DNA of 64,000 nucleotides from a virus, in IMG/VR virus record IMGVR_UViG_3300010396_000042, positions 1-64,000 of that record; one strand, given 5' to 3'. The translations under genes and the position numbers were made by a program. Positions 2,220-62,885 of the stretch are shown here, one piece after another. How positions within the stretch are numbered: position 1 is the stretch's first letter; each line of letters opens with the position of its first letter. The notes under the pieces were generated by a model. It did not search any database. It saw only the letters and a program-made list of their open reading frames with translations, and had not been told where the DNA came from.

Positions 2220-2468
2220 GTGCTCTCCGACGTCGTCGAACTGCTCGCGTATGCCGCGTTCGTCACCGCGGGCTGGTTGATCGCCCCGTGGCTCGGCCTG
2301 GCCGTGCTCGGCACAGCCCTGTGGCTGCTCGCGCAGGTCCTGGACGGCCAGAAGGTGACCATCCCGAAGGTCAAGCTCCCCGGGGTCCCCAGAATTCGCG
2401 TCAAGGCGCCCCGCGTCGTCGCACCGAAGGCCGGGGCCCGCACAAGCGCGCGGCAGCCCGCGCCGTGA
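2220..2468 (+). CDS. Small membrane protein between terminase and portal
   Basis: Hydrophobic N-terminal helices; GGAGG RBS; typical position. Confidence 0.7.
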   Translation: MLSDVVELLAYAAFVTAGWLIAPWLGLAVLGTALWLLAQVLDGQKVTIPKVKLPGVPRIRVKAPRVVAPKAGARTSARQPAP

Positions 2469-3760
2469 GCATCACCGGCAGGCTCCGCGGCCGCTCCCAG
2501 CAGCGGATGTACCTGCCCAGCGGCGCCGGCGACCCGTGGGCGATCCCCAGCAACGGCTCCCTGGCCGCCTGGACCCCGGCCGGGGTTCCGGTGACCGAGG
2601 ACACCGCGATGCAGCTGCTTGTGGTGGCCGCCTCCGTGCGGATCCTGGCCAACGCGGTGGCCGGGTTGCCGCTGGACGCGGTGCGCATGACCGGGACCAC
2701 CCGCAAGCAGCTCGACCCCGCCCCCGCGATCATCGCCGACCCCTTCGGCGGCCTGAACAACCTCAAATGGCCCACCCGGCGCACCGGCTTCACCCAGCTG
2801 ATGGTCAGCCTGCTGCTGCGCGGCAACGGATACGCCGCGGTGGTCGCACGCGACAACCTGATGCGCCCCACACGGCTGCGCGTCATCCACCCTGACCGCG
2901 TCGCTGTCGGCCTCAAGGACGACGGCTCCCGCTATTACGAGGTCAACCGGATCCCGGTCGACCCCGTGGACATGGTCCACCTGGTCGGCATGTCGATGCC
3001 GGAGTCGCCGATCGGCATGAGCGTCATCTCCTACGCCCGCACCGCCATCGGCCTCGGTCTGGCCGCCGAGGAGTTCGGCGCACGGTTCTTCGGCCACGGC
3101 GCGCACCTGTCCGGGGTGCTGGAGCTGCCCGGCGACCTGGACAAGGACCGCGCGCGGCAGGTCAAGGAGAGCTGGGAGGCCTCCCACACCGGCCTCAAGC
3201 ACGCCTTCGCCACCGGCGTGCTCACCGGCGGCGCCAAATGGGTGCCGATCAGCGTCACACCGGAGGACGCACAGTTCCTCGGCACCCGCGCGGCCCAGAA
3301 CCTTGACATCGCGATGCTGTTCGGGATCCCGCCGCACATGCTCGGCCAGGTCGACCGCACCACCTCCTGGGGCACCGGCATCGAGCAGCAGTCCCTCGGC
3401 TTCCTCAAATACACGCTGAGCAACTGGATCGGTCTATTCGAAGAGACCTGGTCCCCGATGCTGCCCAAGCCGCAGGTCGCCCGCTTCAACGTCGCCGGCT
3501 TGCTCAGGACCGACACCGCCGGCCGGTACGCCGCATACACCCAGGCCCGCAACGGCGGCTGGCTGACCCTCGACGAGATCCGCGCCCTCGAGGACTACGA
3601 GCCGTACCCCGACGGCAAGGGCACCGACCCGTTCGCGCCGCTGAACTCCGCGCACGCCGCCGGCAGCGACGGCCCGGCCGATGCGCCTGCGGCGAAGACC
3701 GAATCCGATCCCGGCGCGGCCTCGCCCGCCGGCGACGCCGTCACTGGACAGGAGCCGTAG
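2465..3760 (+). CDS. Portal protein (HK97 family)
   Basis: PEDAQFLGTR..IAMLFGIPPHMLG and GIEQQSLGF motifs; GTG start at 2465 overlaps the upstream TGA. Confidence 0.93.
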   Translation: MSITGRLRGRSQQRMYLPSGAGDPWAIPSNGSLAAWTPAGVPVTEDTAMQLLVVAASVRILANAVAGLPLDAVRMTGTTRKQLDPAPAIIADPFGGLNNLKWPTRRTGFTQLMVSLLLRGNGYAAVVARDNLMRPTRLRVIHPDRVAVGLKDDGSRYYEVNRIPVDPVDMVHLVGMSMPESPIGMSVISYARTAIGLGLAAEEFGARFFGHGAHLSGVLELPGDLDKDRARQVKESWEASHTGLKHAFATGVLTGGAKWVPISVTPEDAQFLGTRAAQNLDIAMLFGIPPHMLGQVDRTTSWGTGIEQQSLGFLKYTLSNWIGLFEETWSPMLPKPQVARFNVAGLLRTDTAGRYAAYTQARNGGWLTLDEIRALEDYEPYPDGKGTDPFAPLNSAHAAGSDGPADAPAAKTESDPGAASPAGDAVTGQEP

Positions 3761-5315: not shown

Positions 5316-6665
5316 ATGTCACGTGCCCTGATTGGCACTCTGCTGGAGCGCCGCGGCGAACTCGCCCTCGAGCTCGACAAGACGCTGCAGCCGGCCAACA
5401 CCGAGAAGCGGAACCTCACTGAGGACGAAGCCGCGAAGTTCGACGCGATCAAGGCCGACATCATCGCGACCGACGAGCGGATCGCAGAGCTCGCCGAGAT
5501 CGACAAGGCCGACGAGGCCGCCGAGGAGCTGCAGAAGCGCTACTCCGGCCCCTCGGTCCAGGTGACCTCCGAGCCGCAGGTCTACCAGCGCGGCAACAAC
5601 GAGACGCAGTTCTTCCGGGACCTGTGGCTCGCCAACCACCGGCGCGACCAGGACGCCCTCGACCGGCTGCGCCGCAACAACGCCATGGTCGCCGACGCGA
5701 AGAAGCAGCGCGCGATCTCCACCGGCACTGGTGCAGGCGGCGAGTTCGTGCCGCCGTTGTGGCTGGAAGAGGACTACATCAAGTTCGCCCGCGCAGGCCG
5801 GGTGACCGCGAACCTGTGCCGCCGCGGCGTCGTGCCGCCCGGCACGAACTCGATCAACATCCCGAAGATCAACACCGGTACCGCCACAGCGCCGGTGTCC
5901 TCGCAGAACAGCAACATCCAGAACACCGACCTGACCACCACGTCGGTCTCCAGCCCGGTCATCACGGTGGCCGGCGGCCAGACCGTCTCGCTGCAGCTGA
6001 TCGAGCAGTCCCCCCTGAACATCGACGAAATCGTGCTGCAGGACCTCGCGGCCGACTACGCCGTGAAGCTCAACGTCCAGGTCCTCTCCGGCACGGGCTC
6101 CTCCGGCCAGGCCACCGGCCTGCTCACCCTGTCGGGTACCAACTCGATCGCCTGGACCCAGGCCACCCCGGCCCTCGGCGGCCCGGGCGGCATGTACCCG
6201 AAGGTCGCCAACGGCATCCAGCAGATCCACACGAAGCGATTCCTCCCGCCGAACGCGATCATCATGCACCCGGTGCGGTGGGCCTGGGCCGAGTCCCAGG
6301 TCGACAACAACGGCCGCCCGCTCGTCGTTCCGGCGTCCGGCGGCGCGTTCCAGATGCTCGCCAACCTCGACGAGCAGGTCTCCGAGGGCCTGGTGGGCTC
6401 TATGCTCGGGCTCCCGTGCTACGTGGATGCGTTGGTCCCGGTGACCGGGGGCGCAGGTTCAAACCAGGACTCGATCATCGTCACCAAGGCCGATGACCTG
6501 TGGCTTTGGGAGGGCGAGATCCGGGCGGAGGCGTTCGCTCAGACCTACGCGAATCAGATGTCTGTGTTCGTGCGCCTATACAATTACGTGAGCTTCCAGC
6601 CCGGTCGTTACGCCCCGTCGACGAGCGTGATCACCGGGACCGGGGCCGTCAGCCCGGCCTTCTAG
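5316..6665 (+). CDS. Major capsid protein (HK97 fold)
   Basis: N-terminal coiled-coil delta domain, GGEFVPPLW, IIMHP motifs; position after protease. Confidence 0.93.
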   Translation: MSRALIGTLLERRGELALELDKTLQPANTEKRNLTEDEAAKFDAIKADIIATDERIAELAEIDKADEAAEELQKRYSGPSVQVTSEPQVYQRGNNETQFFRDLWLANHRRDQDALDRLRRNNAMVADAKKQRAISTGTGAGGEFVPPLWLEEDYIKFARAGRVTANLCRRGVVPPGTNSINIPKINTGTATAPVSSQNSNIQNTDLTTTSVSSPVITVAGGQTVSLQLIEQSPLNIDEIVLQDLAADYAVKLNVQVLSGTGSSGQATGLLTLSGTNSIAWTQATPALGGPGGMYPKVANGIQQIHTKRFLPPNAIIMHPVRWAWAESQVDNNGRPLVVPASGGAFQMLANLDEQVSEGLVGSMLGLPCYVDALVPVTGGAGSNQDSIIVTKADDLWLWEGEIRAEAFAQTYANQMSVFVRLYNYVSFQPGRYAPSTSVITGTGAVSPAF

Positions 6666-49802: not shown

Positions 49803-49876
49803 GGCTCCGTAGCTCAGCGGTTAGAGCAGCGCGCCTTATAAGCCGCAGGTCGCGGGTTCGAACCCCGCCGGAGCTA
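49803..49876 (+). tRNA. tRNA-Ile(UAU) with one bulged base in the anticodon stem
   Basis: Acceptor GGCTCCG/CGGAGCT, D arm GCTC..GAGC, loop CTTATAA, T arm GCGGG-TTCGAAC-CCCGC. Confidence 0.75.
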
Positions 49877-57083: not shown

Positions 57084-58414
57084 TGCGCCGCTGCCTGCAG
57101 CGCCACCTACGGCCGCACGTCCCGATCGGCGTTTTCGCCGTGATCGGCGCCGTGCTGTGGTGGGACTGGCGTTTCACCCACGGCCCGAGCTGGTACGGCA
57201 TCGCCGTACTCGGGCTGCTGACCGCGAAGCTCGCCCTCTCCCTCGGCTCCCGCCCGTATCAGGCATCCGGGGCCGGCGCTGCCCGCGTCGCGCACCTCAA
57301 GGCCGTGGCGGTGATCACCTGCTACAACGAGAAACCCGACCTGCTGCGCGCCTGCCTGCGTTCCCTGCTGGAGCAGTCCCGCCGCCCGCGGGCCCTGGTC
57401 GTGGTCGACGACGCCTCCACCGACCCGGCCTGCCGCCGCGTCGCCGAGAGCTTCGCGCCGCGCTTCGCCCGCGCCGGCATCGACTTCCGGGTGATCGCCT
57501 TCAAGGAGAACAAGGGCAAGCGCCACGCCCTGGCGGCCGCGTTCGACGCGCACCCGAAGGCCGACGTGTACGTGTGCGTCGACTCCGACACCCACCTGGA
57601 CCCGGACGCCGTGCGCAACGTGCTGCAACCCTTCGCGTCCCGCCGCACCAACGCCGTCACCGGCCTCGTCCTGGCCAGCAACGCCCGGCAGAACCTGCTC
57701 ACCCGGCTGATCGACCTGCGCTACGCCAACGCGTTCCTCTACGAGCGCGCCGCCTACAGCCTGCTCGGCTCCGTGCTGTGCTGCTGCGGCTCCCTCGCGG
57801 CCTACCGCGGCAGCGTGGTGCGCGAGCACCTCGGGGACTTCCTCGGCCAGCAGTTCCTCGGCCGCGCCTGCACCTACGGCGACGACCGGCGCCTGACCCA
57901 GTACGCGCTGCTGCGCGGCCGCGTCGTCCTGCAACCCAACGCCGTGGCGTGGACCGAGGTACCCAGCAACCTGCCCTGGTACATCCGCCAGCAGAACCGC
58001 TGGAACAAAAGCTTCTTCCGAGAATCCCTGTGGACCGTGACCAGGGCGCGCATGCACCGGCCCGCGTTCTGGCTCGCCGCGGTCGAACTCGGCTCCTGGG
58101 CCACGTTCACCATCGCGCTGCTCACCGCCCTGGTCGCCCTGCCACTGCGCGCAGGGCACGTGCACGGCTCCTGGTCTCTCGCAGGCGCCTACGCGATGTA
58201 CGCGATGCTGCTGTCCTACGCCCGCTCCGCCCGGTACGTCGAAGTGCGGCACGTGGCCATGCCCTGGCCCGAGCGGATCGGCAGCTACCTGCTCGCCCCG
58301 CTCTACGGCCTGCTCAACCTCGGGCTGCTGCTGTGGGTGCGCCTCTACTCCCTGGCCACCCTGCGCGACAATGGCTGGGGCACGAGAGCGACTGTCGAGG
58401 CGGTGAGTTCGTGA
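57083..58414 (+). CDS. Processive GT2 glycosyltransferase, hyaluronan synthase/NodC-like
   Basis: VVDDAS, GKRHAL, VDSD, CCGSLAAYR, GDDRRLT, QQNRWNKS and terminal WGTR; TM helices at both ends. Confidence 0.88.
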   Translation: MRRCLQRHLRPHVPIGVFAVIGAVLWWDWRFTHGPSWYGIAVLGLLTAKLALSLGSRPYQASGAGAARVAHLKAVAVITCYNEKPDLLRACLRSLLEQSRRPRALVVVDDASTDPACRRVAESFAPRFARAGIDFRVIAFKENKGKRHALAAAFDAHPKADVYVCVDSDTHLDPDAVRNVLQPFASRRTNAVTGLVLASNARQNLLTRLIDLRYANAFLYERAAYSLLGSVLCCCGSLAAYRGSVVREHLGDFLGQQFLGRACTYGDDRRLTQYALLRGRVVLQPNAVAWTEVPSNLPWYIRQQNRWNKSFFRESLWTVTRARMHRPAFWLAAVELGSWATFTIALLTALVALPLRAGHVHGSWSLAGAYAMYAMLLSYARSARYVEVRHVAMPWPERIGSYLLAPLYGLLNLGLLLWVRLYSLATLRDNGWGTRATVEAVSS

Positions 58415-59298
58415 TGGTCTCCGACGTCATCGCGAACGTGCGGCCCCGACACAGCTCCGGCGACCTGCGGATGCTCAATCCTGTCGAGCGCAAAGCTGCA
58501 CTGATGGCCTGGGGTGGCGCGGACCTGGTGGACATCGCGACCGAGACGGGTATGCCCTTTCAGCACGTCCGGGAAGCCGTCGCATTGCAGGCCAAATGGA
58601 GACGCGAGCCGCCGCCGCCCGGCTGGGATCCTGGTCCGCAACCCGAACCGGTGCCGGATCCGGATCCGGATCCGGATCCGGATCCGCTCGGCGAGGTCGG
58701 CGATCTCTCCTCACCCCTGCCGGTCTACGCAGGCGGCATCGATCGCTTACCAGCCGAGGATCGAGCGGACCTGGAACGCGGGCAGGAAAACATCCAGCGC
58801 CTGCTCGACCAGGCGCAGGCCGAGGAGGGGCGGGACGCCGAACTCGAGCAGCTCGTCCAACCGCGCCCCGCACCACGACCGGTCTCGATCTCGATGGGCG
58901 GAATGGACATCGCGCAAACCGTGCGCGCCGGCGAACGCAGCGACGATGCGCACGCCAGAGCGCTGGCGGGGCGTATCCGCCGCCAGGTCAACGAACTGAG
59001 CGCATACCTCGCCACGAAGACGGAGATCGACCTCGCCCATCAGCGAATCAGCACGCTGCAAGACGAGGTCGAATCCCTCAAGAGGATCGTCCGGCACCGC
59101 GAATCGCACCGCCCGGCCAATGCCCGGGCCGCTGCGAGAGAGCCAACCGCACCCGTGATCAAGGCGACGGACGACATGAGGTACTCGACGACAGTGCGGG
59201 ACTGGGCACGACTACACGGCCTTGCGGTCGCAGACAGAGGCCGCATCGCCAACAGCGTCGTCCAGGCGTACCTGGCGGCGCATCCCGCCGAGCGCTAG
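58414..59298 (+). CDS. Protein with (PD)n linker, coiled coil and Lsr2 DNA-binding domain
   Basis: TVRDWARLHGLAVADRGRIANSVVQAY (RGR AT-hook-like); five CCGGAT repeats at 58654-58683. Confidence 0.8.
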   Translation: MVSDVIANVRPRHSSGDLRMLNPVERKAALMAWGGADLVDIATETGMPFQHVREAVALQAKWRREPPPPGWDPGPQPEPVPDPDPDPDPDPLGEVGDLSSPLPVYAGGIDRLPAEDRADLERGQENIQRLLDQAQAEEGRDAELEQLVQPRPAPRPVSISMGGMDIAQTVRAGERSDDAHARALAGRIRRQVNELSAYLATKTEIDLAHQRISTLQDEVESLKRIVRHRESHRPANARAAAREPTAPVIKATDDMRYSTTVRDWARLHGLAVADRGRIANSVVQAYLAAHPAER

Positions 59299-59624
59299 AC
59301 GATGGCGGCGCGTCGTGTCCTGCGCATGGCGCGCCGCGCCGCCCGCGTCCCGTTCGCCTCTTTCGCGGCGCGACTCAGTGCCCGGCTGGCCATCACAGCG
59401 CGCCCGATCTTCGCCGCGCAGTGCTCGCCGAGCCGCGCCGCGGTCGACGCCTCGGCATGCACCGGGTGCTTGCACACCGAGCACTTCACCGGGCCCGAAG
59501 CGTCCTGGGCCGCGATCCACGCGCGCTCGTACTCCGCGAAATCCGGATCGAGCTCGAAGATCGAGGTCTGACCCTGCGATACGTCCATATCACTATGGTG
59601 CCCGCTGCGTCCGACAATCAGCAC
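59295..59624 (-). CDS. DUF6011-like Zn-ribbon protein
   Basis: CSVCKHPV..EAS.AARLGEHCAAK; start uncertain. Confidence 0.6.
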   Translation of the reverse strand: MLIVGRSGHHSDMDVSQGQTSIFELDPDFAEYERAWIAAQDASGPVKCSVCKHPVHAEASTAARLGEHCAAKIGRAVMASRALSRAAKEANGTRAARRAMRRTRRAAIV

Positions 59625-59738
59625 CCCGATTACCAGAAAACCCGCACCGGGACACGGGCACCCGCGAACCTCATTTGTTAGGCCGCCACGCGGCGCAAAT
59701 CATTCGCTGCCGGTGATCCGCACGGCTACCGTGATCTC

Positions 59739-59820
59739 GTCCCGGTGCGATAGGCGACGGTTACTTCCTCTCCTCTCCAGAGAACCCAAGAACACCGCCG
59801 CCGGCCTTCGATCTCGGGGC
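59739..59820 (+). ncRNA. Y RNA-like unit 1 (Ro-binding stem only)
   Basis: 5' CCCGGTGCGATAGG / 3' CTTCGATCTCGGG closing stem; -10-like TACCGT at 59727. Confidence 0.65.
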
Positions 59821-59845
59821 ACACAACTGAACAATGACTGCGAAC

Positions 59846-59980
59846 GCCCGCCAGGTGCGTAGGAGAGAGCTACTTCCAACTTGCTGATTGGGTGGTCCGG
59901 GTTCGAATCCCGGCGGACCTTCGGGTCTGTGGTGTAACGGCAGCACTCTTGTCGCTTTCCCCGATTCGATCTCTGGCGGC
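59846..59980 (+). ncRNA. Y RNA-like unit 2 (YrlA-type permuted tRNA mimic)
   Basis: T arm CCGGG-TTCGAAT-CCCGG, acceptor hairpin CGGACC-TTCG-GGTCTG, D arm GTGT-AACGGCA-GCAC inside a CCAGGTGCG/TTCGATCTCTGG stem. Confidence 0.8.
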
Positions 59981-59997
59981 ACTCGCAGTGGAACGCA

Positions 59998-60102
59998 CCT
60001 CCCGGTGCGCAGGCCACAGGTACTTCTTGGTCACCATGGGTTCAAATCCCATCCGCGCCCTGACCGGCGCGGGGTTCCTGCAGCCGCTTCGATCTCGGGA
60101 GG
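59998..60102 (+). ncRNA. Y RNA-like unit 3 (T arm and acceptor hairpin, no D arm)
   Basis: ATGGG-TTCAAAT-CCCAT, CCGCGCC-CTGACC-GGCGCGG; CCTCCCGGTGCG/CTTCGATCTCGGGAGG stem. Confidence 0.75.
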
Positions 60103-60130
60103 ATCGAACGCTGAACAACTGAATACGGCA

Positions 60131-60284
60131 CCTCCCGGTGCGCAAGGCGAGGAGTTCTTCACAGTCGTCGCGGGTTCAAATCCCGTCGCCCGCAACACGT
60201 GGGGCGTGGCTGAGCGGCCTAAAGCGCAGGGCCCACGAGGCCCTGTTCGACGGACGAGCCTCACCTGTTCTCGATCTCGGGAGG
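60131..60284 (+). ncRNA. Y RNA-like unit 4 (class II-like D arm plus an extra hairpin)
   Basis: GCGGG-TTCAAAT-CCCGT, acceptor hairpin, GCT-GAGCGGCCTAA-AGC, CAGGGCC-CACGA-GGCCCTG. Confidence 0.78.
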
Positions 60285-60296
60285 GACAGCATTGGG

Positions 60297-60439
60297 GTCA
60301 CGCCCGGTGCGCAGGTAACGGGTCCTTCGGAATCAAGGGTTACTGGTTCGAGTCCAGTCGCCGCCCTCACCGGCGGTGTGGCTCAATTGGTAGAGCATTG
60401 GTCTAACAACCCCGTCGCCGCTTCGATCTCGGGCGTGGC
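60297..60439 (+). ncRNA. Y RNA-like unit 5 (YrlA-type)
   Basis: ACTGG-TTCGAGT-CCAGT, CGCCGCC-CTCACC-GGCGGTG, GCTC-AATTGGTA-GAGC; CACGCCCGGTGCG/CTTCGATCTCGGGCGTG stem. Confidence 0.8.
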
Positions 60440-60484
60440 CACTCTTCTCTCCTCCCACCGCATCCGTTCGATGGGAGTCGAGCC

Positions 60485-62140
60485 TTGTCCCGCTTCAACA
60501 CCCCGGCCGCCAAGCCGGCCGTCCACTCCCCGATCGCCACCCAGGCCGTGGCCACCATCAGCACCCATGAGGGCGCGCCGGGTTATGCCCGATCGGACGC
60601 TAAGGGTGAGCTGTTTCTGCTCGCGGTCTCCAACCTGGTGGGCAAGAACACCTTCTACGAGCAGGCCGGCGCCCGTGACGAGCGGTTCGAGCGCCTCATC
60701 CACCAGGTCGCGATCGAGGATCCCGCCTGGCTCTCACGCTTCATCCCCTGGCTGCGCGGCGAGGCCAACATGCGCACCGCGTCCCTGGTCGCGGCCGCGG
60801 AGGCGGTCAAAGCACGCCTGGACGCCGCTAAGGGGACCGCCAACAACCTCGGCGCCCAGCTCACGGTCGGCCAGCAGACCGACGAGCACACCGCGGGCGG
60901 CCAGAACCGCAAGCTGATCGATGCCGCGTGCCAGCGCGCGGACGAGCCCGGAGAGCTGCTCGCCTACTGGACGTCCCGCTACGGTCGCGCGATCCCCAAG
61001 CCGGTCAAGCGCGGCCTGGCCGACGCCGTGCGCCGCCTCTACAGCGAGCGGTCGCTGCTCAAGTACGACACCGACTCCAAGGGCTACCGCTTCGGCGACG
61101 TCATCGACCTCGTACACCCCTCCCCCGCTGTGGACCGGCGCTGGCAGGGCGAGCTGTTCGAGCACGCCCTCGACCGCCGCCACGGGCGCGACAAACCGAT
61201 CCCCGCCGGCCTGTCCACGCTGATCGACCGCGAGCGGCTGATGGCCACACCGCTCGACCAGCGCCGCGAGACACTGCGCCGACACCCCGAGCTCCTTGCG
61301 CGCGCCGGCATGACCTGGGAGGCCCTCGCGGGCTGGCTGCAGGGCCCGATGGACGCCGAGGCGTGGTCGGCGATGATCCCGTCCATGGGGTACTTCGCGC
61401 TGCTGCGCAACCTGCGCAACTTCGACCAGGCCGGCGTGCCCGACGAGGTCGCCGAGAGCGTGGCCGCGCGCCTCGCGGACCCATCACAGGTCGCATCCTC
61501 CCGCCTGTTCCCGTTCCGGTTCTACGCCGCGCACAAGAACACCGGCTCGCTGCGCTGGGGCCACGCCCTGGAGAAGGCGCTGCGCGCGTCCCTCTCCAAC
61601 ATCCCGGCGCTTCCCGGCCGCACGCTGGTGCTCATCGACCAGTCGCCGTCGATGTTCCCCGGCTTCCACTTCTCAACGCCCAGCGACAGCGACATCTCCG
61701 CCGCGGAGAAGGCCGCGCTGTTCGGCGCCGCCGTGGCGCTGCGCGCGCAGAACGCCGACCTGGTCGGGTACGGGCAGAACAACTACCGGGTGCCGTTCGG
61801 CAAGGGCGACGCGGTGTTGGAGGTGATGAAGCGCTTCCGGATGGACGACGGCACGGACACCCCGCGCGCGATGGTCGAGCACTTCCGCGGCCATGACCGG
61901 GTGCTGATCGTCACCGACGAGCAGACCGCGTACTCGAACACCGGCCGCACCGTCGACAACGCCGTGCCGGCCAACGTTCCTGTCTACACCTGGAACCTCG
62001 CCGGTTACCGGCCCGGGCACGCCCCATCCGGCACGAGGAACCGCCACACCTTCGGCGGCCTGACCGACCACGCCTTCAAGATGGTGCCGCTGCTCGAGGC
62101 GGGACGGGGCCAGCAGTGGGATGTCGTATTCGGCAAATAG
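60485..62140 (+). CDS. Ro60/Rsr orthologue (TROVE + vWA domains)
   Basis: ELFLLAV..TFYE, LRGEANMRT, RADEPGELLAY, KPVKRG..LLKYD, ALLRNLRN, TLVLIDQSPSM (MIDAS-like), LIVTDEQ; TTG start with GGGAG RBS. Confidence 0.92.
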   Translation: MSRFNTPAAKPAVHSPIATQAVATISTHEGAPGYARSDAKGELFLLAVSNLVGKNTFYEQAGARDERFERLIHQVAIEDPAWLSRFIPWLRGEANMRTASLVAAAEAVKARLDAAKGTANNLGAQLTVGQQTDEHTAGGQNRKLIDAACQRADEPGELLAYWTSRYGRAIPKPVKRGLADAVRRLYSERSLLKYDTDSKGYRFGDVIDLVHPSPAVDRRWQGELFEHALDRRHGRDKPIPAGLSTLIDRERLMATPLDQRRETLRRHPELLARAGMTWEALAGWLQGPMDAEAWSAMIPSMGYFALLRNLRNFDQAGVPDEVAESVAARLADPSQVASSRLFPFRFYAAHKNTGSLRWGHALEKALRASLSNIPALPGRTLVLIDQSPSMFPGFHFSTPSDSDISAAEKAALFGAAVALRAQNADLVGYGQNNYRVPFGKGDAVLEVMKRFRMDDGTDTPRAMVEHFRGHDRVLIVTDEQTAYSNTGRTVDNAVPANVPVYTWNLAGYRPGHAPSGTRNRHTFGGLTDHAFKMVPLLEAGRGQQWDVVFGK

Positions 62141-62150
62141 GCTCGCTGGC

Positions 62151-62885
62151 ATGGGTCGTCCCCGCCAGCCGTGGAAGCTTCCTTTCGAGGAGGTCCGCCG
62201 CCGATATGAATCAGGCGAGTCCGCACTTTCACTCGCGGTCGAGTGCGGGCTCGCTACCTACCATCCCGTTCTCCAGGCGCTTCGCGAATCGGGTGTCCCG
62301 ATCAGGAATCCCGGAGGCCAAGCTGGCCCGCGCCCGAACCATACATCTCAGAAGGAAACGAGGACCTGCAGCGGGCTGAACTGCCAAAACACGTTCACGG
62401 CTAATCCGTCGATGAACAAGCGATTCTGTTCGCCGTCCTGCCGGTACACGTCACCTGAGTTGGCAGCACTCCGGACCGCGAACATCAAGAACCGTCACGA
62501 GCTCACATCCGTCGACGAGGAGAATCTCACCGCGACCTGCTCGGTCTGCGGACCTACCGACATCCGGGAGCGCCACGAGAAACGCCGGTTTCCTGGCCAA
62601 AGGAGGTGGCGCTGTCGGGGTGCCGAGCGTGCAGCGGTCTGGGCGCGGCACTACGGCATTGAAGCCGAAACGGTACACAAAATGTGGAGCGCACAGGACG
62701 AGCGGTGCGCGATCTGCCGGACCGCTTTGGGCCGCAAGTTCTACATCGACCACTGCCATTCGACTGGCCGCGTCCGAGGGCTACTCTGCCACTACTGCAA
62801 CGCCGGAATTGGACTGTTTTACGACGATCCAACACGGTTGGCTGCGGCGATCGAGTACTTACTCGCTGCTTCCGCCGCGCACTAA
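62151..62885 (+). CDS. HTH + endonuclease VII putative homing endonuclease
   Basis: RRRYESGES...LRESGV.IR; YGI..Q.ERCAIC..IDHCHSTGRVRGLLCHYCNAGIG. Confidence 0.85.
   Translation: MGRPRQPWKLPFEEVRRRYESGESALSLAVECGLATYHPVLQALRESGVPIRNPGGQAGPRPNHTSQKETRTCSGLNCQNTFTANPSMNKRFCSPSCRYTSPELAALRTANIKNRHELTSVDEENLTATCSVCGPTDIRERHEKRRFPGQRRWRCRGAERAAVWARHYGIEAETVHKMWSAQDERCAICRTALGRKFYIDHCHSTGRVRGLLCHYCNAGIGLFYDDPTRLAAAIEYLLAASAAH

What the first reader, a model, noticed from the sequence alone, without database searches (positions are those of the whole stretch)
59727..62140. Phage-encoded Ro60 with a tandem array of five modular Y-RNA-like ncRNAs
Seen: five units (59739-59820, 59846-59980, 59998-60102, 60131-60284, 60297-60439) lie directly upstream of a TROVE/vWA gene. 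Each opens with CC(C/A)GGTGCG..AGG, carries an internal T(A/T/C)CTTC and closes with TCGATCTC(G/T)GG. The two ends pair into a bulged stem, with compensatory changes in the outer pairs (CCGCCAG/CTGGCGG, CCTCCCG/CGGGAGG, CACGCCCG/CGGGCGTG). The interiors differ in every unit. Established: bacterial Ro60 (Rsr) binds adjacent Y RNAs through a bulged terminal stem; YrlA-type Y RNAs mimic tRNA; Rsr/Y RNA can tether PNPase; some phages encode Ro60. Inference: this is one Ro60 with five interchangeable RNA adaptors or decoys (constant handle, variable payload), possibly redirecting host RNA decay or titrating tRNA-targeting anti-phage nucleases. No RtcB, RtcA or RtcR gene is seen in the window.
Basis: partly seen in the sequence, partly recalled or inferred. 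Interest (0 to 1): 0.95.

Follow-up and report, generated by a model that had tools for sequence, protein, structure and literature searches.

The report
Phage Ro60 gene with five Y RNAs
A soil actinophage carries the RNA-binding ring protein Ro60 preceded by five small partner-RNA (Y RNA) genes, most of them tRNA look-alikes. This is a real, well-conserved locus of a published kind, and near-identical arrays sit in the chromosomes of Streptomyces-like bacteria and in other actinophages.

Summary
Five tandem units (59739-60440, + strand) lie directly upstream of a 551-aa Ro60/TROVE+vWA gene (60485-62140) in a 97-kb phage record. All five share a handle: a variable outer stem, GGUGCG opposite GAUCUC with a bulged U, a second stem, then YUACUUC. 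The handle covaries strongly across 30 units from six phage loci (90.7% of cells paired against 64.9% in shuffles).

Unit 1 is a plain hairpin. Unit 3 has only a T arm. Units 2, 4 and 5 carry T arm, acceptor-like hairpin and D arm in that order, which is the published YrlA architecture.

A covariance model built from the 30 units finds only these five in the whole phage genome. It also finds 2-7 units upstream of Ro60 in other actinophages (Gordonia Trax and VanLee, Streptomyces Frankenweenie). There they are unannotated or called tRNA or small ORFs. It finds 213 units in 78 of 80 actinobacterial chromosomal Ro60 loci, with up to five per locus and a similar order of unit types (same in the 4-unit arrays, permuted in the 5-unit one).

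So this is a genuine Y RNA array, but a new member of a known kind (Chen et al. 2014; phiLo Ro60, 2025). "Constant handle, variable payload" is the standard Y RNA model. The decoy and anti-defence idea is untested. This scan has reported similar Ro60-plus-RNA arrays on other DNA before.

The parts
59728..59733 (+). Promoter-like -10 hexamer (TACCGT) 6 nt upstream of unit 1
   Evidence: A TAnnnT hexamer (TACCGT, TACGGT, TATCGT, TAGGCT or TAAGCT) lies 6-8 nt before the first unit in many of the 21 phage and bacterial loci inspected. L003 and L004 also have a canonical TTGACT or TTGACA -35 at 17 nt. The consensus scanner found no strong sigma-70 site here. This is inference only.
59739..59820 (+). 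Y RNA unit 1: handle plus a plain hairpin with a pyrimidine-rich loop (YrlB-like), no T loop
   Evidence: CM R1 44.2 bits, E 2e-9. Fold. Closest matches are the first units of L002, L009 and the bacterial arrays, 0.65-0.74 identity.
59848..59979 (+). Y RNA unit 2: YrlA type, with V hairpin, T arm, 6-bp acceptor-like hairpin closed by UUCG, and D arm
   Evidence: CM R1 81 bits. Rfam YrlA 26.2 bits, below threshold. The Rfam tRNA model scores 29.7 bits on 59853-59921 and ARAGORN calls an odd tRNA there. RNAalifold structure.
59998..60102 (+). Y RNA unit 3: handle plus T arm plus one GC-rich hairpin, no D arm
   Evidence: CM R1 72.1 bits. Fold z = -2.9. Closest matches are the third units of the bacterial 4-unit arrays.
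60131..60284 (+). Y RNA unit 4: T arm, short acceptor-like hairpin, D arm with a long loop (by eye like class II tRNAs), and an extra 6-bp hairpin. Its outer stem is identical to unit 3's.
   Evidence: CM R1 50.9 bits. Rfam YrlA 15.3 bits. L002 and L009 have four units and no unit of this type. Best matches are Planomonospora unit 3 and Microbispora unit 2.
60296..60440 (+). Y RNA unit 5: YrlA type, with 10-bp outer stem, T arm, 7-bp acceptor-like stem, U8 and a canonical D arm
   Evidence: CM R1 81.1 bits. Best Rfam YrlA hit, 37.8 bits, E 2e-6, against a gathering score of 69. Fold z = -3.5. Covarying T, acceptor-like and D stems.
60441..60484 (+). CU-rich leader and ribosome-binding site (GGGAG) of the Ro60 gene. 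It may form a hairpin pairing CUCCC with GGGAG.
   Evidence: The same pairing is predicted in the window, L002 and L009, but fold z-scores are weak, -0.9 to -1.5.
60485..62140 (+). Ro60 (Rsr) orthologue, 551 aa: TROVE HEAT-repeat ring plus vWA domain with MIDAS motif
   Evidence: Pfam TROVE 5e-14. PDB 9KOP/9L5Y phiLo Ro60, E 4e-22. 54-61% identity to the 80 best actinobacterial chromosomal Ro60s. Invariant DxSxS, T and D residues.

Best explanation
The locus is a phage copy of the actinobacterial rsr-Y RNA locus: one Ro60 gene preceded by five Y RNA genes.

**The shared handle.** Each RNA carries the same Ro60-binding handle:
- an outer stem of 5-10 bp with free sequence;
- the invariant GG of GGUGCG paired to C-C of CUC around a bulged U;
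- a small U-G / A-U internal loop;
- a C-G, G-C/U step;
- a second stem of 7-9 bp;
- then YUACUUC.

**The variable modules.**
- Unit 1: plain hairpin.
- Unit 3: T arm only.
- Units 2, 4 and 5: permuted tRNA mimics, with T arm, closed acceptor-like stem and D arm.

**Proposed mechanism.** By analogy with characterised Ro60 particles, each RNA docks its handle on the outer face of the Ro60 ring. This gates access to the central cavity. The second module then tethers the particle to another factor: PNPase in Deinococcus, Salmonella and Thermus phage phiLo, and an unknown factor that reads the T/D elbow for YrlA. The phage would thus bring its own set of structured-RNA decay or quality-control particles into the host.

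**Transcription.** The array is probably transcribed from one promoter just upstream of unit 1, together with Ro60, and then processed. Unit 5, with a 7-bp acceptor-like stem, may be cut by RNase P as M. smegmatis YrlA is.

**Shown here:** the anatomy, covariation, linkage to Ro60, and homology to host loci.
**Inferred:** Ro60 binding, partner proteins, processing, and the role in infection.
For: 1. **Linkage.** A canonical Ro60 lies 44 nt downstream on the same strand.
2. **Handle covariation.** RNAalifold on 21 YrlA-type units predicts handle, T arm, 7-bp acceptor-like stem and D arm, with 25 of 34 pairs showing compensatory changes.
3. **Rfam.** YrlA is the best non-tRNA Rfam hit for units 5, 2 and 4, all below threshold.
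4. **Specificity of model R1.** It hits only the five units in the 97-kb phage. All 213 hits at E <= 0.01 in 80 bacterial Ro60 loci are on the Ro60 strand, nearly all within about 800 nt upstream. 78 of 80 loci have at least one.
5. **Independent hits.** Cultured phages not used in training have units upstream of Ro60: Trax 4, VanLee 3, Frankenweenie 2.
6. **Synteny.** The order of unit types (short, YrlA, T-only, YrlA) is shared with Planobispora, Microbispora and Spirillospora chromosomes. Their flanks are ordinary metabolic genes.
7. **Literature.**
   - YrlA next to Ro60 in 254 bacteria and 22 phages, a conserved YUAY, M. smegmatis YrlA and YrlB bound by Rsr, and RNase P cleavage of YrlA with a 7-bp stem (PMC4201824).
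   - The modular Ro60-binding and effector-binding model and the conserved UA kink (10.1101/312249).
   - phiLo Ro60 binds two phage Yrl RNAs and host PNPase (PMC12135203).
Against: - No expression or binding data exist for this phage.
- The 5' motif is GGUGCGNAG rather than the published GNCGAAN0-1G. All Rfam YrlA scores are below the gathering score (37.8 at best, against 69).
- Individual fold z-scores are unremarkable for units 1, 2 and 4.
- The partner of the tRNA-like module is unknown even in model bacteria.
- No strong sigma-70 promoter or terminator was found around the array.
Confidence: 0.82

Rival explanations
1. The primary role is counter-defence. The tRNA-shaped units would act as decoys that soak up host anticodon nucleases or other tRNA-targeting effectors, or they would retarget host PNPase away from defence functions.
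For: - Three or four of the five units mimic tRNA.
- Phage arrays tend to be larger than bacterial ones: 5, 4, 4, 6, 5 and 7 in phage loci found by Ro60 homology, against 35 of 80 bacterial loci with two units and 28 with three.
- The authors of the phiLo paper suggest that hijacking PNPase could blunt CRISPR RNA maturation (PMC12135203).
Against: - The mimics lack an anticodon arm, because the handle occupies that position. Anticodon nucleases would therefore lack their target loop.
- The same array is present in host chromosomes among ordinary metabolic genes.
- I have no experimental data.
Confidence: 0.1
2. The units are mainly cis-acting. They would form a structured 5' leader of the Ro60 mRNA to which Ro60 binds, autoregulating its own synthesis, rather than being released as free RNAs.
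For: - No terminator lies between the units or before Ro60.
- Spacers are short, 11-28 nt.
- A single promoter-like element lies upstream of unit 1.
- A conserved CU-rich leader could pair with the ribosome-binding site.
Against: - In M. smegmatis the homologous YrlA and YrlB accumulate as discrete Rsr-bound RNAs (PMC4201824).
- In L003, L004 and L007 the units lie up to 1.7 kb from Ro60, with ORFs in between.
- The conserved tRNA-like modules serve no purpose in a plain operator.
- This reading is compatible with the main explanation as an added layer.
Confidence: 0.05
3. The array is a set of decayed or rearranged tRNA genes, that is tRNA pseudogenes, with no functional tie to Ro60.
For: The Rfam tRNA model and ARAGORN give weak hits inside units 2 and 5. 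GenBank annotators called tRNA-Arg and tRNA-Pro on the homologous units of VanLee and Frankenweenie.
Against: - The element order is permuted, with the T arm before the D arm and a closed acceptor stem, and this order is conserved.
- Unit 1 has no tRNA feature.
- The non-tRNA handle is the most conserved and most strongly covarying part.
- Linkage to Ro60 holds in 78 of 80 bacterial loci.
Confidence: 0.02

Closest known systems
YrlA/YrlB Y RNAs of Actinobacteria with Rsr (M. smegmatis; also predicted in Streptosporangium roseum, Gordonia and mycobacteriophage ET08; Chen et al. 2014, PMC4201824; Rfam RF02553)
   Same: - The genes lie upstream of Ro60 on the same strand.
- The 5' and 3' ends pair into a stem.
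- YUAY follows the stem.
- T arm, acceptor-like hairpin and D arm come in the same order.
- A companion RNA has only a T arm or a plain hairpin.
- Some members have a 7-bp acceptor-like stem.
- The published M. smegmatis probe sequences imply ACUUC followed by a T arm, as seen here.
   Different: - There are five genes here, against the two shown in M. smegmatis.
- The 5' motif is GGUGCGNAG, not GNCGAAN0-1G.
- A conserved 3' GAUCUC/GUUCUC with a bulged U is not part of the published description.
- Rfam scores are below the gathering threshold.
Thermus phage phiLo Ro60 with Yrl1 and Yrl2 (PMC12135203; PDB 9KOP, 9L5Y)
   Same: A phage-encoded Ro60 has Y RNA-like genes directly upstream. The protein is a sequence homologue (E 4e-22).
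   Different: - phiLo has two RNAs with a CGAA bulge and no tRNA-like module is described for them.
- The proteins share 26% identity.
- Binding and PNPase recruitment were shown for phiLo and nothing has been shown here.
Deinococcus radiodurans Rsr-Yrn1-PNPase (RYPER) and metazoan Ro60-Y RNA particles
   Same: The RNA is modular, with a bulged closing helix for Ro60 and a second module for an effector. The genomes hold several paralogous Y RNAs (two to four). The motif GGUGCG(N)A resembles the metazoan GGUCCGA.
   Different: The bulge here is on the 3' strand (U), not the 5' strand (C). The effector module is a near-complete tRNA mimic. No PNPase link is shown.
Salmonella rsr-yrlBA-rtcBA RNA repair operon (PMC7790460)
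   Same: Ro60 is paired with YrlA and YrlB.
   Different: There is no RtcB in the 97-kb phage record and no sigma-54/RtcR context. The RNAs lie upstream of rsr rather than downstream.

Membership tests
Bacterial/phage Y RNA (YrlA/YrlB type) | Encoded within a few kb of a Ro60 (TROVE) gene, on the same strand | tested here: met
   The units end 44 nt before the Ro60 start. The same arrangement holds in 78 of 80 bacterial loci and in all phage loci examined.
Bacterial/phage Y RNA (YrlA/YrlB type) | The 5' and 3' ends pair into a helix that carries the conserved Ro60-binding motif (published: GNCGAAN0-1G; metazoan: GGUCCGA) | tested here: inconclusive
   The helix is strongly supported by covariation. 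The conserved motif is GGUGCGNAG opposite GAUCUC/GUUCUC, which is similar to the published consensus but not identical.
YrlA subfamily | tRNA-like effector module: T arm, acceptor-like hairpin and D arm in that order, with YUAY after the handle | tested here: met
   RNAalifold on 21 units gives a 5-bp T stem with a GGUUCGAAUCC-type stem-loop sequence, a 7-bp covarying hairpin and a 4-bp D stem. YUAC is nearly invariant. This is met for units 2, 4 and 5, and not for units 1 and 3.
YrlA subfamily | Score at or above the Rfam RF02553 gathering threshold (69 bits) | tested here: not met
   The best scores are 37.8 bits (unit 5), 26.2 (unit 2) and 15.3 (unit 4). The Rfam model does not reach this actinobacterial/actinophage branch.
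Bacterial/phage Y RNA (YrlA/YrlB type) | Bound and stabilised by Ro60, accumulating as a discrete small RNA | not testable with these tools
   This needs Ro60 pull-down and small-RNA sequencing.
Ro60/Rsr protein | TROVE HEAT-repeat ring plus C-terminal vWA domain with MIDAS motif | tested here: met
   Pfam TROVE. Homology to solved phiLo Ro60 over residues 270-541. DxSxS, T and D are invariant. I did not predict a structure.
Genuine tRNA genes | Cloverleaf in canonical order with an anticodon arm and a free acceptor end | tested here: not met
   The order is permuted, the acceptor stem is closed by a loop, and the handle takes the place of the anticodon arm. tRNA-model hits are marginal: 29.7 and 24.2 bits.

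The most novel reading that the evidence does not exclude
Actinophages have expanded the host's two- or three-member Y RNA set into arrays of four to seven distinct tRNA-shaped adaptors. Each adaptor would couple the phage Ro60 ring to a different host factor, or would titrate a different tRNA-binding defence or processing enzyme. On this reading the array is a programmable toolkit for takeover or counter-defence, not a passively inherited host locus.
Probability: 0.12. Interest if true: 0.75.

Novelty: new member of a known kind. Interest (0 to 1): 0.4.

Why it matters
The role of bacterial Y RNAs, and especially of the tRNA-like YrlA module, is still unknown. This work adds four practical things.

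1. **A clean definition of the handle.** It comes with strong covariation and a covariance model that recovers hundreds of units the Rfam YrlA model misses.
2. **Multi-member arrays are the rule.** Arrays of two to seven type-distinct Y RNAs are normal in Streptomyces-like bacteria and their phages. The published picture of one or two Y RNAs per genome understates the family.
3. **Annotation errors in cultured phages.** In Trax, VanLee and Frankenweenie these genes are unannotated or mislabelled as tRNAs or tiny ORFs.
4. **Tractable systems.** Gordonia and Streptomyces phages with genetics available could be used to ask what Ro60 and each Y RNA class do during infection.

None of this overturns current understanding.

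Tried and rejected
- **Rfam at gathering thresholds.** It gave only a marginal tRNA hit in the array. YrlA appears only below threshold.
- **Megablast of the first 20 kb against cultured phages.** No match. The phage has no close cultured relative.
- **Public sequencing runs.** No RNA holder is listed. Seven soil-metagenome DNA runs hold part or all of the stretch, and one of them may be the source. I did not use read laying, because contigs of DNA runs cannot show transcripts.
- **Consensus promoter and terminator scan.** Nothing on the + strand. The promoter proposal rests on a manual comparison.
- **Ro60 phylogeny.** Phage and bacterial Ro60s are intermixed, but the backbone is unresolved and the window's position has no supported clade. 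I claim no donor and no direction of transfer.
- **Reviews.** Two reviews (PMC10870794, PMC6047535) and the supplements of Chen et al. 2014 are not held. I therefore could not check whether multi-copy phage arrays were already tabulated there.
- **T-loop resemblance of the 3' motif.** I considered that UUCGAUC is a relic T loop, because the tRNA model aligned it that way. I rejected this as chance, because the low-GC relatives have GUUCUC instead.
- **Regex unit finder.** It under-counts relative to the covariance model. The model counts are the ones I used.
Full report
**What the window is.** The window is the first 64 kb of a 97,298-bp IMG/VR virus record, about 85% complete by CheckV. It encodes a large terminase (529-2175), a portal (2288-3760) and a major head protein (5316-6665). 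It has no close cultured relative. Public runs that hold the stretch are soil metagenomes. It is a high-GC tailed phage, presumably of an actinobacterium.

**The observation.** Reading 59500-62400 confirms five co-oriented units at 59739-59820, 59848-59979, 59998-60102, 60131-60284 and 60296-60440.
- Each begins with CC(C/A)GGTGCG followed by AGG.
- Each carries T(A/T/C)CTTC shortly after.
- Each ends with TCGATCTC(G/T)GG.

The exact 3' motif occurs five times in the window, only here. RNAfold closes four of the five units with the same geometry; unit 4 was folded on a stretch cut short of its 3' outer-stem strand, so its closing stem could not form in that run:
- an outer stem;
- the GG of GGUGCG paired to the two Cs of CUC around a bulged U;
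- a 2x2 internal loop;
- a C-G/G-C step;
- an internal loop;
- a second stem;
- then the variable interior.

The ORF that follows (TTG at 60485 to 62140, 551 aa) is a Ro60.
- Pfam TROVE scores 5e-14.
- It is homologous to the solved Thermus phage phiLo Ro60, E 4e-22.
- The MIDAS residues DxSxS, T and D are invariant among five phage homologues.

**Is it more than chance?** Homology searches with the Ro60 protein brought in related viral contigs. Every one carries an array of units with the same handle upstream of Ro60. Counts by covariance model:

| Locus | Units |
|---|---|
| L002 | 4 |
| L009 | 4 |
| L003 | 6 |
| L004 | 5 |
| L007 | 7 |

I aligned 30 units with MAFFT (A1). The alignment was not fitted to any structure, and both ends align cleanly. 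On my 19-pair handle structure:
- 90.7% of cells are standard pairs, against 64.9% in column shuffles (0 of 500 shuffles reach it) and 39-51% with slid partners;
- 142 cells have changes on both sides, against about 42 expected;
- the outer-stem pairs show 4-6 pair types each.

The GG/C-C pairs and the C-G pair are invariant or nearly so. This is consistent with a protein contact surface flanked by a freely varying helix.

**What the units are.**
- Rfam's YrlA model is the best named match for units 5 (37.8 bits), 2 (26.2) and 4 (15.3). All are below the gathering score of 69.
- RNAalifold on 21 long units from phages and bacteria predicts the handle, a 5-bp T stem with a GGUUCGAAUCC-type stem-loop sequence, a 7-bp hairpin in the acceptor position, then (U/C)GU and a 4-bp D stem with a GG-containing loop. 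25 of 34 pairs show compensatory changes.
- This is the YrlA architecture of Chen et al. (PMC4201824), whose tRNA-like fold was solved by Wang et al. (10.1101/312249). It includes the conserved YUAY/UA element, which here is YUACUUC.

Unit by unit:
- Unit 5 has a full 7-bp acceptor-like stem followed by U8 and a canonical D arm. This is the feature that makes M. smegmatis YrlA an RNase P substrate (PMC4201824).
- Unit 2 closes its 6-bp stem with a UUCG tetraloop.
- Unit 4 has a D arm whose long loop looks by eye like that of class II tRNAs, and an extra hairpin.
- Unit 3 has only a T arm, as M. smegmatis YrlB does.
- Unit 1 is a plain hairpin with a pyrimidine-rich loop, like the "long hairpin" Y RNAs described in each studied species.

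**How general it is.** A covariance model (R1) finds exactly the five units in the entire phage record.

In cultured phages that were not used to build the model, it finds units directly upstream of the annotated "Ro-like RNA binding protein".
- Gordonia phage Trax has four, overlapping the tiny hypothetical CDS 91-93.
- Gordonia phage VanLee has three, one of them annotated tRNA-Arg.
- Streptomyces phage Frankenweenie has two, one of them annotated tRNA-Pro.

In the 80 best bacterial Ro60 loci it finds 213 units. These loci are from Streptomyces, Nonomuraea, Streptosporangium, Planomonospora, Actinomadura, Rhodococcus and others, at 54-61% protein identity. All units are on the Ro60 strand and nearly all lie within about 800 nt upstream. 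My tally of units per locus is:

| Units per locus | Loci |
|---|---|
| 0 | 2 |
| 1 | 1 |
| 2 | 35 |
| 3 | 28 |
| 4 | 12 |
| 5 | 2 |

- Two bacterial loci that I checked are flanked by ordinary metabolic genes (hydrolase, short-chain dehydrogenase, beta-lactamase family). They are chromosomal, not prophage.
- The four-unit arrays of Streptosporangiales and Thermomonosporaceae have the order short, YrlA, T-only, YrlA. This matches L002 and L009, and the window apart from its extra unit 4. Each window unit's best matches are units of the same type and length class elsewhere.
About 45 of the 80 that I searched contain model hits, several with 5-6 units.
- A Ro60 tree intermixes phage and bacterial proteins with an unresolved backbone. 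I claim exchange between phages and hosts but no direction.

**Mechanism.** The shown facts are the conserved bipartite anatomy, the covariation, the tight linkage to Ro60, and homology to RNAs that are bound by Rsr in M. smegmatis. The rest is inferred by analogy.
- The handle docks on Ro60.
- The second module tethers the particle to an effector. That effector is PNPase in D. radiodurans, S. Typhimurium and phage phiLo (PMC12135203). For YrlA it is an unidentified reader of the T/D elbow (10.1101/312249).

A TAnnnT hexamer lies 6-8 nt upstream of the first unit in many of the 21 loci inspected, with canonical -35 boxes in L003 and L004. Spacers are short and there are no terminators. Together these suggest one transcript that includes Ro60 and is processed into unit RNAs. 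The phage record holds no RtcB, so the Salmonella-type repair-operon context does not apply.

**Comparison and novelty.** The kind is known. YrlA-like RNAs beside Ro60 were reported in 254 bacteria and 22 phages in 2014, and a phage Ro60 with two partner RNAs was characterised in 2025. The "constant handle, variable payload" idea is the standard Y RNA model.

What is new is modest.
- The precise handle of the actinobacterial/actinophage branch, which Rfam misses.
- The finding that arrays of two to seven type-distinct Y RNAs are the norm.
- A tendency for phage arrays to be larger than host arrays. This rests on a small, non-independent sample.
- The mis-annotation of these genes in deposited phage genomes.

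Earlier agents of this scan reported similar Ro60-like-protein-plus-RNA-array loci on other DNA. This case is the most canonical of them, because both the protein and the RNAs are recognisable members of the published families.

I rate it a new member of a known kind, of moderate interest. The host-chromosomal twins of the array argue that the core function is not phage-specific.

Noticed in passing
window 49803-49876 (+): A good tRNA (Rfam 62.4 bits) with the anticodon loop CUUAUAA, which gives anticodon UAU (Ile, reads AUA), and one extra base bulged in the anticodon stem. ARAGORN could not name it.
   Followed up: no
L014 3113-3581 (Gordonia phage Trax), L012 3248-3684 (VanLee), L013 3474-3794 (Streptomyces phage Frankenweenie): In these GenBank phage records the Y RNA units upstream of the Ro-like gene are unannotated, or overlap tiny "hypothetical protein" CDS (Trax 91-93), or are annotated as tRNA-Arg(tct) or tRNA-Pro(tgg). 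These are probably mis-annotations.
   Followed up: partly
window 60441-60484; L002 2959-3016; L009 2960-3016: A CU-rich leader after the last unit can pair CUCCC with the GGGAG ribosome-binding site of Ro60 in all three phages. It may control translation, but the fold z-scores are weak.
   Followed up: partly
window 59690-59733 and the 70 nt upstream of the first unit in 20 other loci: Besides the TAnnnT hexamer, an AAAT(C/T)A-like element about 40 nt upstream of unit 1 recurs in phage and bacterial loci (for example AATCAGATGTG in several Streptosporangiales). It may be a regulator or alternative sigma factor site.
   Followed up: no
window 59821-59847 and 60103-60130; L002 about 2674-2700; L009 about 2506-2532: Some inter-unit spacers share AACTGAA(C/T)A. 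This could be a processing site or an internal promoter element.
   Followed up: no
window 62121-62885 (+): An endonuclease VII-like gene (PHROG 2633, 1.5e-30) overlaps the end of Ro60 by 20 nt.
   Followed up: no
window 57157-59298 (+): An ORF (mechanical ORF call) with an Lsr2-like C-terminal domain, upstream of the array.
   Followed up: no
L046 (MAG labelled Acholeplasmataceae, 96.7-kb contig) and L084 (Rhodococcus MAG with a cyanobacterial family label): Both carry an actinobacterial-type Ro60 (54-56% identity) with Y RNA units of about 60-70% GC. The contig or its taxonomy label is probably mis-binned. L046 may itself be an actinophage.
   Followed up: no
L157 5984-6439 and 8020-8427: One viral contig has two separate clusters of three units each, about 1.6 kb apart.
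   Followed up: no
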